DNA of 63,596 bases, filler included, from Octopus bimaculoides (taxonomy: Eukaryota): NCBI RefSeq assembly GCF_001194135.2. It is 7 parts of 6 records of this genome, joined end to end, with 100 filler letters (N's around TTAATTAATTAA, not from the genome) between each part and the next. Parts side by side here need not be neighbours in the genome. Positions count along the whole stretch, not along the records: positions 1 to 31,791 come from NC_068984.1; positions 31,892 to 46,211 come from NC_068984.1; 5 more parts are not named here. One strand, 5' to 3'. This document shows, one piece after another, positions 6,421 to 44,110 of the stretch (positions are counted from its first letter, which is position 1; each line of letters starts with the position of its first letter). Both the position numbers and the translations under genes were made by a program. Below the pieces are notes generated by a model that was not told the origin of the DNA, did no database searches, and was given only the letters and a program-made list of their open reading frames with translations.

Positions 6421-7162
6421 TTTTCTCAGGTTTAGTTATCATGTCGTGGTCTCCCTTTTTCCTCATATGTACATACACACACACATTCATATGCACACAC
6501 ACACAAACACACACACACCACTATAATATCAAAAATAAATCTCCAGTGATACTTTACATTCTATAGAGAGATGGGGAGGGAAAGTAAAAGAAAGATACAA
6601 AGAGAGTTAACATAAGAGATGCAGAGTAATTACACATATGAGTCTTGGTGGCTGACAAAGAGTAAAAGAATGCTACAAAAAAACTGAGAGAGAAAGAATC
6701 ATAAAAACTGAGGAGGAGAGGAAGTGAATGACAGAGAAGTTATGGGATAAGTTATGCAAATGAGAAATTTGCATAATTCAATTTTAAGGTAATAAATATT
6801 TTCCTTTTCAGAATTAGTAACCATTTAATTATTTTGTATAAGCACCAAAACATTTGATAAAAGTTATAATGATTGTATGTATACTTTATTTCCTGATATT
6901 ACCCTGGTAGCAAAAGTATACTTCCAAACTTACCCATCATGTAATGGATAGGTAATGTGTGTGTGTGTGTGTATATATATATATATATATANNNNNNNNN
7001 NTGTGTGTGTGTGTGTGTATATATATATATATATATATATATATATATATATATATGCATGTAAGTTATCTAAGAGTCTATAAGTCAGGAAAAAATGCAC
7101 TTATATATCTTTTATAGAGTGGGTATATTATCTGAAGTGTACAGTATTATATATCTATTATG

Positions 7163-7252
7163 GCCAATTTTACCAACCGGTTTCACACAAAGGATTCAAC
7201 GGAGTGTTAGGTAACAATCTGATTATCTAACCCTGCACTCATCAGAGGTGGC
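7163..7252 (-). ncRNA. Degenerate hammerhead-ribozyme-like motif with long stem II
   Basis: Minus strand reads GCCACCT-CTGATGA-GTGCAGGG...CCTTTGTGT-GAAA-CCGGTTG-GTA-AAATTGGC. The core, a 3-bp stem III, a wobble-rich stem II base and an imperfect stem I are all visible. Confidence 0.35.
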
Positions 7253-7654
7253 TGATATGGATATGGTGACTATTGTCTATTTTTGGAGGTGAATAAATAC
7301 ATCTGGTTTGTGATTGCTGTGAAAAAGATAATGAAACAAATCATATAATACTTCAAATATGTGTGTTGGCAACATGAATTCACTATTATTATAATAAATA
7401 TGTTGATTATTCTGTGTACACATTCATTACTTTTGTTGCATTATATATATATATATATGATATATATATATCATGGATTCTCCTGTCATAGACAATGCAT
7501 GAGAGTTCTGCACTTTCTTGCTGAACAACCATACAGATGATTTGTTTATAGTGGCCAAATGTTTGTGTACACTTAAGGTTACTCCCTCCATCATGTTGGT
7601 ATTACCTGTACAGGTGCATGACGGGCCACATGTCAGATGATGAAATGATCACAA

Positions 7655-7772
7655 ATCAATGTGAAATTAAGTGTTTTTCTCAAGAGCACAATGCAATGCC
7701 TGGTCTGAGAATTGAAACCAGGATTGCACAATCATGAGTGTAACACCCTAACCACTAAGCCATGCACCTTCA
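7655..7772 (-). mobile_element. tRNA-derived SINE head (family A)
   Basis: Reverse complement gives GCATGGCTTAGTGGTTAGGG ... TTCAATTCTC ... GTGCTCTTGAGAAAAACAC: A box, B box and core, as at 61768. Confidence 0.65.
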
Positions 7773-8699
7773 CACACGCGCGAGCGCGCACACACACACA
7801 CACACACACACACACACACACAACTGCAGGATAGAGTTTAAAGGAGATTTGGGTGCTTGTTCTATCAGGTTTAGTTACCATGTAGTGGTCTCCTTTATTG
7901 GTTCATATATATATATATATATATATGTAGTGTAGTAGGTTGTGATTAGAGAGAGAGAGAGAGATTTGACTGCTATTTTTAGCAGATCAAGTTGCCACAA
8001 TGTTATCCCTTGTGGCTCATACATATATACATATGAAACAGTAGGCTTTGATTTTATAAATTTATGACTGCTATTTCTACCAAGTCTTGCTACTACACAG
8101 AGGTTGCATCCACTAGCTACTATTTCTATCTGGTATATAGATATTCATTTATCAGCTTGTAAGATTGCAGGATGTGATTTCAGGAAGATTTGGCTGCCAT
8201 TTCTAACAGATCATGGTCAATATAGAAGAGCTCCATAATGGTTCATATAAACATTTGTATATTCATTAGCTAGTATAGGATTTGGTCACGATTTCTAGGA
8301 ATTTGCAAAGTGTTGCTATATAAATAAATCAATGCCACAGTTCTGCCTTCCTCTTTCTCCATCTATGTCTCTCTTTCTCTTTATATGTGTCTCATTCCCC
8401 ATCTATTTCTATTTCCTTATATCAGAGAGTGAGAAAAAGATAGAAGGGAAGAGGAAGAGAAAGAAAGACTTAAAAGAGATTGAAAACAGAAAAGAAAAGG
8501 AGTTCAAATGTAATTTTGAATCTTCCATTCACTGATCCTACCTTTTCCCCGTTAACTTTATGCATATCTACTTTCTATTAATTACACCCACTTTCAGCTT
8601 TCTCCTTTTCTTCATCATCTTTCTTAATAGACAGTAATGAGTGGTTTGAGAGAGATTTGGCTGCTAGTTCTCTAAATAAATGTTACACAAACTTTCCTT

Positions 8700-10010
8700 T
8701 GGGATGGTAAATATTAATATATATAGTTTTAGGGGTGTTTATTTTGTAGTTTCTGAATACAAGGCAGACATACATACAAATAATTCACATGTCTATATAC
8801 TAGTCACACCTGCAGAAATTCCATGGAAAACATCATTAATTTATGGGATCCAAGCGGCAGTGAGAATCTAAACAATATCTATTCATTCATTATACATTTT
8901 GGCAGATTCAAATATGACTATCTGATCGTTGTTGTTTTTCATCATCAGAGAACACCTTTTCGCTTTATACTGTAGGTATGTAGATGATAACAATATTCTA
9001 GTTAGAAGAATCCCATGTGATCATACCAAAGAAAGCATCCAATGCATAGCTAATTTCATCTATCATAGTATCAAGGTAACAATAGACTAAAATAGACACT
9101 CTGTCCTTGATACCAAATTTTGGTTAGAGACTACAAACAGCAAAGTTCAACTTTGCCACTCCTATTATTTGAAACCCATAACTTCCAAATATGTTATTCA
9201 CAAGAACTCAGCTTTATCACACAATGTAAAGATTAGCATACTAATAGCAGATTTAGTTAGGATAATGGACAATATGTACCCCTTATGCAAACCCTATGAA
9301 ATAAAGAGATATACACAGAACTTAATGCATTGCATGCAGTTCTCTGACTATGACCAGAGAGATAGAGTCAAAATGTATAGGGGAACTAGGAAGAAGTTTG
9401 ATAAGTAAGGATGCCAGTGAAACCTGCCCTAGATATCAGGACAAGCGATGGAACAGAATACAGAGAATTTGTGATAAAGCAAACAGAACAAACACATGGT
9501 ACAGGACAAATAAATTTTGAGGGTGATGTTTTTAGAGGCCACATCGAATGGGGAGTTAGCTCTGAAGGATACCAAACTCAACATTGAGTTTGAGAAACCC
9601 GGGAGGTCCATCAGATCACATTTATGTAAGATGTACACTTTTGACAAGATGACATGTACTGATCTGAACTGTATGGTATGCACCTTTAACCCCAGTATTA
9701 ACTGTAAGACTAGGAATGTAGTCCACAGCATAAAGTGCATGGATGGGGAATGTAAAAATCAAACTACAATGTACATTGGGGAGACTTCTAGAAGTTTAGC
9801 AGAGAGACTAGATAAACACTGGCAGGAGTATAATGACAGGAAACAGTCTCTATACTCTATCAACTTGCCAAAGATCAACATGGTAGCATGCTAAGCCGAA
9901 TTAGCATCTATATCTTGTCTAAACATCTGAGAGACCTGTTGCTTTGACAGATATGCAAGTCGGTTCTCATAAATGAGACGATACCAATACTGAATAAAAA
10001 ATATCTATAG
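8700..10010 (+). mobile_element. Decayed Penelope-like element (RT plus GIY-YIG endonuclease)
   Basis: MGSK motif, YCRYVDD at 8968-8988, thumb-like KPITSKYVIHKNSALSHNVK (ORF 9169), and GIY-YIG CKTRNVVHSIKC...MYIGETSRSLAERLDKH (ORF 9517); ends VLINETIPILNKK. Confidence 0.8.
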
Positions 10011-43277: not shown

Positions 43278-43531
43278 ATGTCTGTGCACACGTTTGAATG
43301 TGGTGTGTGCCAGAGGGTTTGCAAATCCAATGGGGGTCTTAAAAGACATGTTAGGATCCACAATGAGCAGAACTTACTTGCAGGTATTGGTAGTGCAAAT
43401 CAGAGGTGCAATCTGTGTGGGTGTTTTTTCAAAACACTGTCTGGTTTAAAAAGCCACATCAGACGCCATGAAAGGGCTAAGGTGTAGGTGCAGGAGGTGG
43501 TCAAACTCTGTTTAAGGAGTAGACAACCACC
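43278..43531 (+). mobile_element. Probable 5'-truncated LINE 3' end encoding two intact C2H2 zinc fingers, followed by (TA)n
   Basis: ORF FECGVCQRVCKSNGGLKRHVRIH...CNLCGCFFKTLSGLKSHIRRH. No TGEKP linker. Short 3' UTR ending GGAGTAGACAACCACC-(TA)n, as in RTE-type tails. Confidence 0.6.
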
Positions 43532-43618
43532 ATATATATATATATATATATATATAATAAATGGGTGTATGAGTGTAATAACAATAATCCTTGAATGGAA
43601 TTTCTAAACATTTGATGC

Positions 43619-43755
43619 ATCACTACGCGCGTTTCCACAAGTCACATGGCTCTTAAGATCATAGTCCATATTATTAGGATGATTACCGCGTGTAGTTCGT
43701 AGTATCCGTGGGCATCCGGTTTGGTCATCTTCATTGGTTCATTTCTTCAGGCGAT
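43619..43755 (-). ncRNA. Hammerhead-like motif with a ~110-nt stem II region
   Basis: Minus strand: ATCGC-CTGAAGA-(about 108 nt)-GAAA-CGCGC-GTA-GTGAT. Stem I ATCGC/GTGAT and palindromic stem III ACGCGCGT both pair. Confidence 0.45.
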
Positions 43756-43879
43756 ATAACATTAGTTAATCTACAACAGACGGATGCTCATCCCCTTTTA
43801 CCACCATGAAGTTCAAGCGAGTCCTGTGGGTATTTGCACATTCAAAACGTTTCCCATAAACAAAATTAAAAAGATATAT

Positions 43880-44110
43880 ATAAAGAACTCTTTCTTCACC
43901 CATTCCCTTCCAGTCATTTCAATGTGTGACCGCGTGTGTATCGTTGGCGATTTTCTTTCTCCGTCTTCCCTTCTTTGGACTTTTAATATATTTCTGATGA
44001 AGAGCTCCGCTCGAAACGTGAAGTCCTCTTTCTTTTCTTTCCTTTCCTGATCGACCAATAACACTGTACTTATTTCACGACCTCGCGATGTTGTATTTTT
44101 TCTTATATAT
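43880..44110 (+). mobile_element. Penelope-type pseudo-LTR fragment carrying a hammerhead, ending in (TA)n
   Basis: Hammerhead core followed by a ~80-nt pyrimidine-rich spacer and a TA tract; tail is similar to 31715-31791. Confidence 0.55.
43990..44024 (+). ncRNA. Minimal type-I hammerhead ribozyme motif
   Basis: ATTT-CTGATGA-A-GAGC-TCC-GCTC-GAAA-CGT-G-AAGT: perfect 4-bp stem II, extra A after A9, loopless palindromic stem III ACGT, stem I ATTT/AAGT. The cleavage triplet is GUG (non-canonical). Confidence 0.7.

What the first reader, a model, noticed from the sequence alone, without database searches (positions are those of the whole stretch)
6960..44110. Recurring architecture: hammerhead core, short spacer, (TA)n tail; a possible dispersed ribozyme-retroelement family set
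Seen: four unrelated sequences (7163-7252 minus, 22347-22420 plus, 43619-43755 minus, 43990-44024 plus) each have CTGA[T/A]GA ... GAAAC, a (near-)palindromic stem III and flanking stem I arms. Each is followed by about 50-130 nt and then a TA-type microsatellite. Known: Penelope-like elements (PLEs) and retrozymes carry minimal type-I hammerheads with palindromic stem III that act as dimers. Inference: these are several non-autonomous, TA-targeting, hammerhead-bearing retroelements. Three of them have stem II regions of about 47-108 nt, far longer than the short hairpin typical of minimal PLE hammerheads.
Basis: partly seen in the sequence, partly recalled or inferred. Interest (0 to 1): 0.75.

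Follow-up and report, generated by a model that had tools for sequence, protein, structure and literature searches.

The report
Long-armed hammerheads on Hydra retrotransposons
Four worn repeat copies in what is likely octopus DNA carry the motif of a self-cutting RNA at the tail of Penelope-type jumping genes, and three of them have an unusually long side arm, a form present over 11,000 times in this genome that is predicted, but not shown, to cut as paired RNAs.

Summary
All four motifs are real. Each belongs to a separate high-copy dispersed family (790-2,500 first-look candidates per family searched). Families A (7245-) and C (43750-) are 5'-truncated 3' ends of protein-coding Hydra-clade Penelope-like elements (RT with DKT, CxCX5C linker in A, C-terminal GIY-YIG), not non-autonomous elements. 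B (22351+) may be non-autonomous. D (43994+) is an ordinary minimal hammerhead with a GUG triplet, likely dead. The TA run is better read as the insertion target than as a tail. The notable part is domain II: 54, 54 and 105 nt at family level, against 12-26 nt in published Hydra hammerheads. A pattern for 45-65-nt arms matches 11,032 times genome-wide, against 346 and 241 for controls. Of the first 30 matches, 28 have a self-complementary stem III and 22 a stem I, although the pattern asks for neither; stems covary across related families. The window copies are decayed. RNA reads show no cut-site pile-up, and cleavage is untested. Spike-moss PLE hammerheads with ~50-nt arms are a published precedent. 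This scan noted the long-arm class before on other octopus DNA. Verdict: a new variant of a known kind.

The parts
7049..7340 (-). Family A copy: 5'-truncated 3' end of a Hydra-clade PLE
   Evidence: 82% match over 300 nt to L002, whose upstream carries RT and EN remnants; 1843 first-look candidates
7163..7252 (-). Hammerhead A: CUGAUGA 7245-7239, domain II 54 nt, GAAA 7184-7181, stem III 7180-7172, A17 at 7171, predicted cut 7171/7170; stem I and III decayed in this copy
7018..7056 (.). (TA)n at the 3' junction of A, likely the insertion target
22132..22298 (-). Family B inverted arm, including part of the optional 3' extension; its core is mutated
22334..22471 (+). Family B direct arm; with the inverted arm it forms a fold-back insertion
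   Evidence: 1910 first-look candidates
22347..22420 (+). Hammerhead B: core 22351-22357, domain II 47 nt (family 54; 7-nt deletion), GAAA 22405-22408, stem III CAGTTG, A17 at 22416
43532..43556 (.). (AT)n at the 3' junction of C
43557..43830 (-). Family C copy: 5'-truncated 3' end of a Hydra-type PLE
   Evidence: 1217 first-look candidates
43619..43755 (-). Hammerhead C: stem I ATCGC/GTGAT, CUGAAGA 43750-43744, domain II 108 nt (family 105), GAAA 43635-43632, palindrome ACGCGCGT, A17 at 43624
43831..43867 (+). Inverted piece of family C's optional 3' extension at the 5' junction, a typical PLE inversion
43882..44105 (+). Family D copy: young PLE-type 3' end; no ORF found
   Evidence: 91.5% to L096; 2478 first-look candidates
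43990..44024 (+). Minimal hammerhead D: unpaired A, 4-bp stem II, ACGT palindrome, G at position 17 (GUG triplet)

Best explanation
A and C are broken-off 3' ends of protein-coding Hydra-type Penelope retrotransposons and B and D are likely ends or short derivatives of similar elements, and the families A, B and C carry a type I hammerhead motif with a 54-105-nt second arm that is predicted to cut only when two RNAs pair through the palindromic stem III, likely helped by the element's own protein. Shown: sequence anatomy, family conservation, ORF linkage for A, C and the related E family, 5'-truncation ladders, inverted 5' pieces, and genome-wide abundance. Inferred from the PLE literature: the GIY-YIG domain nicks AT-rich DNA or (TA)n, and RT starts 50-130 nt downstream of the cut site on an uncut or circular template, since the copies aligned run on past the predicted cut site; the hammerhead trims multi-unit or read-through precursors rather than being needed for each insertion. 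Inferred: the long arm is a tolerated, still base-paired extension of stem II. The window copies themselves are likely inactive.
For: Family majority has a full core, palindromic stem III and stem I in A, B, C, E, E2 and G. A17 is present in 47/47 A, 50/51 B, 30/30 C, 25/25 E, 20/20 E2 and 20/20 G copies. The free position N7 is polymorphic in A (31 T/16 A) and E2 (12 G/8 A), whereas 1/75 core columns versus 59/753 other non-CpG columns carry a shared variant >=15% (Fisher p=0.034). Genome-wide pattern: 11,032 matches versus 346 reversed and 241 scrambled-core. In the first 30 matches, features the pattern does not ask for: stem III self-complementary 28/30 (null 15%), stem I >=3 bp 22/30 (null 6%), stem II base >=3 bp 22/30 (null 19%). 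Unbiased 679-kb sample: 5 long-arm motifs with a >=6-nt palindrome versus 0.07 in 30 shuffles. Covariation in a 15-sequence E-group alignment: 89.6% of cells paired; 10 of 25 pairs change on both sides, in all four helices. Family A motif lies downstream of 22/30 EN hits. The majority C sequence folds into the hammerhead-compatible form as its MFE; A and B lie within 0.4 kcal/mol; stem III self-duplexes are -9 to -13 kcal/mol while the 8-nt palindromes form no hairpin.
Against: No cleavage assay. RNA reads from 3 raw runs of one study show no start or end pile-up at either cut site and no joints, and few reads cover C's arm. A direct second copy, the usual cis dimer partner, occurs in only 2/185 loci, and no 5' direct pLTR was seen in 16 extended loci. 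The base of stem II lacks the canonical G10.1-C11.1 pair in B (A.A) and C (A.G). The A and C arms fold no better than shuffles (z -1.0, -1.4). The D subfamily amplified with GUG (136 exact 30-mers), so cleavage is dispensable at least there. No ORF was found for B in 60 loci or for D. The alignment is of related, hand-picked sequences with a structure taken from family E, so its shuffle counts are not probabilities.
Confidence: 0.72

Rival explanations
1. The motifs are vestigial: ancestral Hydra hammerheads whose loop II expanded after catalysis became dispensable, kept only as a folded RNA signal for the element's protein.
For: D amplified with GUG. PAc HHR mutants still insert in vitro, and no cut-site reads were seen (PMC11167929). 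Non-canonical 10.1-11.1 pairs occur in B and C. No end pile-up.
Against: Core residues and A17 are held across at least six sequence-unrelated or diverged families while N7, stems and arms change, which is the pattern expected from selection on catalysis.
Confidence: 0.17
2. The long arm is an adaptation that lets the ribozyme work as a monomer or serves as a specific docking site for the Hydra protein, which then licenses cleavage.
For: Arm length clusters at 46-65 nt in many families (the range is partly set by the pattern). Inner helices keep pairing, with compensatory changes in 3 of 12 pairs. Cis partners are rare. PAc cleavage is protein-assisted.
Against: No shared sequence among the arms of A, B, C, E and G. 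C has twice the length. Hydra-1_Obim has a 23-nt arm, so the clade works without a long arm.
Confidence: 0.08
3. They are non-autonomous retrozyme-like units replicating through tandem repeats and circular RNA.
For: B has a discrete 5' end about 300 nt upstream of the core in 13 of 14 long copies aligned, and no ORF in 60 loci. D shows no ORF.
Against: A, C and E continue into RT/EN. Tandem copies 2/185. No back-joints in RNA reads.
Confidence: 0.03

Closest known systems
Hammerheads of Hydra-clade Penelope-like elements, including Hydra-1_Obim (Craig et al. 2021, PMC8557442, Files S1 and S2)
   Same: C-terminal EN elements of about 2-3 kb with DKT, CxCX5C and CxxC/CxH motifs; (TA)n insertion; type I hammerhead near the 3' end; palindromic stem III; U.U or other non-canonical base of stem II. 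A family-A RT fragment is 66/101 residues identical to Hydra-1_Obim (counted by eye).
   Different: Published Hydra domain II is 12-26 nt (26 rows; Obim 23 nt). Here it is 53-59 nt in A, B, E, E2 and G, 72-93 nt in others, and 105 nt in C.
[quoted passage not shown]
   Same: D matches: unpaired base after A9, G10.1-C11.1, 4-bp stem I, palindromic 15.2-16.2, mostly solo copies, inverted pairs 100-700 bp apart.
   Different: D's subfamily has G17. A-C have far longer helix II than the 7-8 bp called 'larger than usual' there.
PLE-X1_sMoe and PLE-X1_sTam hammerheads of spike mosses (PMC8557442 File S2)
   Same: About 54- and 48-nt domain II in a PLE hammerhead, a precedent for long arms.
   Different: Single EN-minus, rDNA-targeting plant families marked there as deviating; not a genome-wide class of more than 11,000 motifs.
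Metazoan non-LTR retrozymes (Cervera and de la Pena 2020, PMC7229834; Li et al. 2026, bioRxiv 10.64898/2026.07.22.740005)
   Same: Type I hammerhead; PLE-related.
   Different: Those are tandem 150-450-nt units expressed as circles. Here the copies are solo or inverted, truncated, and in part ORF-linked.

Membership tests
Type I hammerhead ribozyme | Core CUGANGA, GAAA, U16.1 | tested here: met
   All four window copies; intact in 28/47 A, 32/51 B, 22/30 C, 28/30 D copies
Type I hammerhead ribozyme | NUH triplet (17 not G), families A, B, C | tested here: met
   A17 in 47/47, 50/51, 30/30
Type I hammerhead ribozyme | NUH triplet (17 not G), family D | tested here: not met
   G17 in the window and in 25/30 nearest copies; GUG is non-cleaving per PMC4191386 passages
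Type I hammerhead ribozyme | Stems I, II, III with open stem I, supported by covariation | tested here: met
   Met at family and class level; decayed in window copies A and B
Type I hammerhead ribozyme | Loop I-loop II tertiary contact | not tested
   Minimal PLE hammerheads lack a clear one; not modelled
Type I hammerhead ribozyme | Self-cleavage 3' of position 17 | not testable with these tools
   RNA reads gave no pile-up, but cDNA libraries show ends poorly
Hydra-clade PLE (families A, C) | RT followed by C-terminal GIY-YIG EN on the same strand as the hammerhead | tested here: met
   A: L122, L371, L381; C: L128, L378. Pfam did not recognise 5 decayed fragments
Hydra-clade PLE (families A, C) | DKT in place of DKG | tested here: met
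   A 'FSDKT'; C 'PVDKT' in L040/L378
Hydra-clade PLE (families A, C) | CxCX5C linker; CxxC and CxH around E and N | tested here: met
   A: CSCRGNTTC, CRLC..E..N..CSH. E likewise. C: CNLRLEE..N..SCKH, but the linker is too decayed to read
Hydra-clade PLE (families A, C) | Placement in RT phylogeny | not tested
   No reference proteins on hand as stored sequences; by-eye identity only
Hydra-clade PLE (families B, D) | Linked RT/EN | tested here: inconclusive
   None found in 60 B loci within 1.5 kb, or in the D loci examined
PLE insertion anatomy | Variable 5' truncation, inverted 5' pieces, optional 3' extension, AT-rich target | tested here: met
   (inverted second copy in 26/185 loci); microsatellite within 160 nt downstream 16/30, upstream 9/30, null 16%
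Non-LTR retrozyme | Head-to-tail tandem units | tested here: not met
   2/185 loci with a same-strand second copy
Non-LTR retrozyme | Abundant circular RNA | tested here: inconclusive

The most novel reading that the evidence does not exclude
Octopus Hydra retrotransposons have turned hammerhead domain II into a 50-105-nt selected module that recruits the element's RT-EN protein and brings two separate transcripts together for cleavage in trans, making this a protein-gated natural ribozyme class of more than 11,000 copies that standard searches miss.
Probability: 0.15. Interest if true: 0.72.

Novelty: new variant of a known kind. Interest (0 to 1): 0.48.

Why it matters
Hammerheads in PLEs are known, but censuses use descriptors with a short domain II, and Rfam found none of the four motifs here. 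A class of more than 11,000 long-armed motifs in a dozen or more families implies undercounting, and suggests rechecking PLEs reported with only half cores 35-50 nt apart (PMC8557442). Young, near-identical long-arm families (E, E2: 2-4% from majority) next to a GUG subfamily (D) give natural test pairs for the open question of what PLE hammerheads do.

Tried and rejected
Rfam E-value scan: no hammerhead family hit at the four sites; one weak HH10 hit at 14076-14194 (E 0.99) has no core and was rejected. Pfam on 5 decayed ORF fragments: nothing meaningful. An initial recalled assignment to the Neptune clade was dropped after reading the Hydra motifs. RNAalifold of domain II gave no consensus for A, B, C or D, but did for E, E2 and G; post-insertion decay is star-like, so within-family covariation was not informative. 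Run search: no RNA holder listed, which is no evidence either way. RNA was examined only for C and D; the young family E, where cut ends would be most visible, remains unexamined. Walking B upstream ended at a microsatellite; walking D ended in CA-rich sequence and gaps. The idea that C's 3' extension is the next unit's ORF start was inconclusive. Chance: rejected. The idea that (TA)n is a templated tail is disfavoured because junction repeats differ among copies. Literature searches for a long-armed PLE hammerhead class found none; subscription papers, Repbase/Dfam notes and the bioRxiv preprint's supplements were not visible.
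Full report
Observation. The four motifs are at the stated places: A core 7245(-), B 22351(+), C 43750(-), D 43994(+), with 54, 47, 108 and 12 nt between CUGANGA and GAAA. A and B lie in one pack stretch, C and D in another about 90 Mb away on contig C4. My descriptor requires the core, stem II base, a self-complementary stem III and stem I. It passes only C and D in the window, against a mean of 0.04 hits in 300 shuffles. 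Rfam scores none of them, and the whole window motifs fold no better than shuffles. The single copies are worn; the case rests on the families.

Families. Searches of G000 gave 1843, 1910, 1217 and 2478 first-look candidates for A, B, C and D; 40 were scored and 30 kept as loci for each. These are the nearest copies, not a random sample. The family majority restores what the window copies lost: A has G10.1-C11.1, a 54-nt arm and a 10-nt palindrome; B has an 11-12-bp basal helix in a 54-nt arm, of which the window copy lost 7 nt; C has a 105-nt arm, ACGCGCGU and an extended stem I. Constrained folding puts the hammerhead-compatible form at the MFE for C and within 0.4 kcal/mol for A and B, but 2.7-6.2 above it for D, E, E2 and G; window copies A and B are 7.1 above. 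The 8-nt stem III palindromes give no hairpin but self-duplexes of -9 to -13 kcal/mol, which fits dimer action. Arm z-scores against mononucleotide shuffles are B -5.8, E2 -3.7, E -2.5, G -2.4, but only C -1.4 and A -1.0.

What carries them. Copies share a fixed 3' region and thin out upstream. Of 185 loci, 26 have an inverted second copy and 2 a direct one. The window's B is such a fold-back, and C has an inverted scrap of its own 3' extension at 43831-43867. Long A copies run into RT and endonuclease coding remnants, and 22 of 30 endonuclease hits have the A motif downstream. L378 shows C as inverted piece, RT, EN and 3' hammerhead over about 2.9 kb. The motifs DKT, CxCX5C (read in A and E) and CxxC..E..N..CxH match the Hydra clade as defined in PMC8557442 (section read). 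An A fragment is 66/101 identical by eye to Hydra-1_Obim; this, with the 2.34-Gb genome size, is my basis for 'likely octopus'. I adopted the Hydra label after an earlier scan note suggested it, then checked it. B has no ORF in 60 loci and a discrete 5' end in 13 of 14 long copies aligned, so it may be non-autonomous. D has no ORF in the loci examined and is a textbook minimal motif (PMC4209133, parts 1-2 of 4 read), except for G17 in 25/30 nearest copies and 136 exact genome matches. GUG does not cleave (PMC4191386 passages).

A genome-wide class. In 80 evenly placed stretches (679 kb non-N) the descriptor found 16 short-arm motifs and 7 with arms >=30 nt, 5 of them with a >=6-nt palindrome, against 0.07, 0.6 and 0.07 in 30 shuffles. 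The pattern CTGANGA-N45-65-GAAACNNNNGTA matches 11,032 times, against 346 read backwards and 241 with a scrambled core; it excludes A and C by design. In the first 30 matches, stem III is self-complementary in 28 (23 Watson-Crick), stem I has >=3 bp in 22, and the stem II base has >=3 bp in 22, against nulls of 15%, 6% and 19%. They fall into 15 BLAST clusters, where L362 was mis-oriented and 2 loci look like chance matches. In a 15-sequence alignment (11 of those 30 loci plus 4 E/E2 copies), 10 of 25 pairs change on both sides, in stems I, II, III and the inner arm, with 89.6% of cells paired versus 25-46% for slid controls. The structure came from family E and the rows are related, so this is support, not a probability. 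Across 7 families, shared variants avoid core columns (1/75 versus 59/753) while N7 varies in A and E2.

RNA. In 3 raw runs of one study (about 6% of each read) 1008, 1243 and 713 reads were laid on C and D, mostly 90-95% alike, so from other copies. They cover D in both directions about equally, cover C's arm at depth 0-13, and show no joints and no pile-up at either cut site. This fits passive transcription of embedded copies and does not test cleavage.

Mechanism. Inferred from PMC11167929 (passages and section 3 part 2): the RT-EN protein binds the RNA, nicks AT-rich DNA and starts reverse transcription internally, at either of two sites that define the optional tail. The hammerhead there cleaves only with protein and is not needed for insertion in vitro. 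Here the aligned copies run on past the predicted cut site, with short and long 3' ends, so templates were uncut at that site or circular. Microsatellites lie downstream in 16/30 and upstream in 9/30 loci (null 16%), which fits a target. I therefore read the motif as a dimer-dependent precursor-trimming ribozyme whose stem II has lengthened. The rarity of cis partners is unexplained: it points to rare tandem masters or to pairing in trans.

Comparison and novelty. Published Hydra hammerheads have 12-26-nt domain II (26 rows of File S2). Two spike-moss PLE motifs with about 54 and 48 nt are listed there as deviating, and eight Naiads are noted with half cores 35-50 nt apart. A U10.1-U11.1 mismatch is known and tolerated (PMC3088659 passages). 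Retrozymes are tandem (PMC7229834 passages; bioRxiv 10.64898/2026.07.22.740005 part 1 of 5 and passages, supplements not seen). The squid genome paper only counts Rfam hits (passages). Seven searches showed no description of a long-armed class. That engineered hammerheads tolerate long stem II is recalled, not checked. Earlier unreviewed scan notes report the same class on other octopus DNA; they are not independent evidence. Verdict: real, a new variant of a known kind, activity untested; interest 0.48.

Noticed in passing
   Followed up: partly
window 43994-44024 and 136 genome sites: A subfamily of D amplified with G at position 17, a triplet reported not to cleave.
   Followed up: partly
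window 43290-43530 (+): Two C2H2 zinc-finger-like coding stretches ending at the (AT)n shared with C; resembles the 3' end of an RTE-type LINE (label recalled, not tested).
   Followed up: no
L141, L153, L172, L176, L177, L189, L199: One 21-nt-arm minimal hammerhead family makes up 7 of 16 short-arm hits in the unbiased sample.
   Followed up: no
L130:2283(+) and its inverted partner; L372:4486(+): Further long arms: a head-to-head pair of 93 and 77 nt, and a 72-nt motif downstream of Hydra-like RT/EN remnants.
   Followed up: partly
family A 3' extension (window about 7060-7100, minus): By eye it resembles the first 45 nt of the published Hydra-1_Obim consensus, hinting that long 3' ends run into the next unit's leader (tandem or circular template).
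   Followed up: no
family B, L268-L296: 13 of 14 long copies aligned start at the same place about 300 nt upstream of the core, right after (TG)n or (TA)n, suggesting a discrete ~430-nt unit or an internal microsatellite.
   Followed up: partly
window 20032-20191 and 21056-21306: Exact 80-bp and 104-bp duplications, the second across an N gap; possibly assembly artefacts.
   Followed up: no
window 41096-41645: A 550-nt degenerate (CAT)n array.
   Followed up: no
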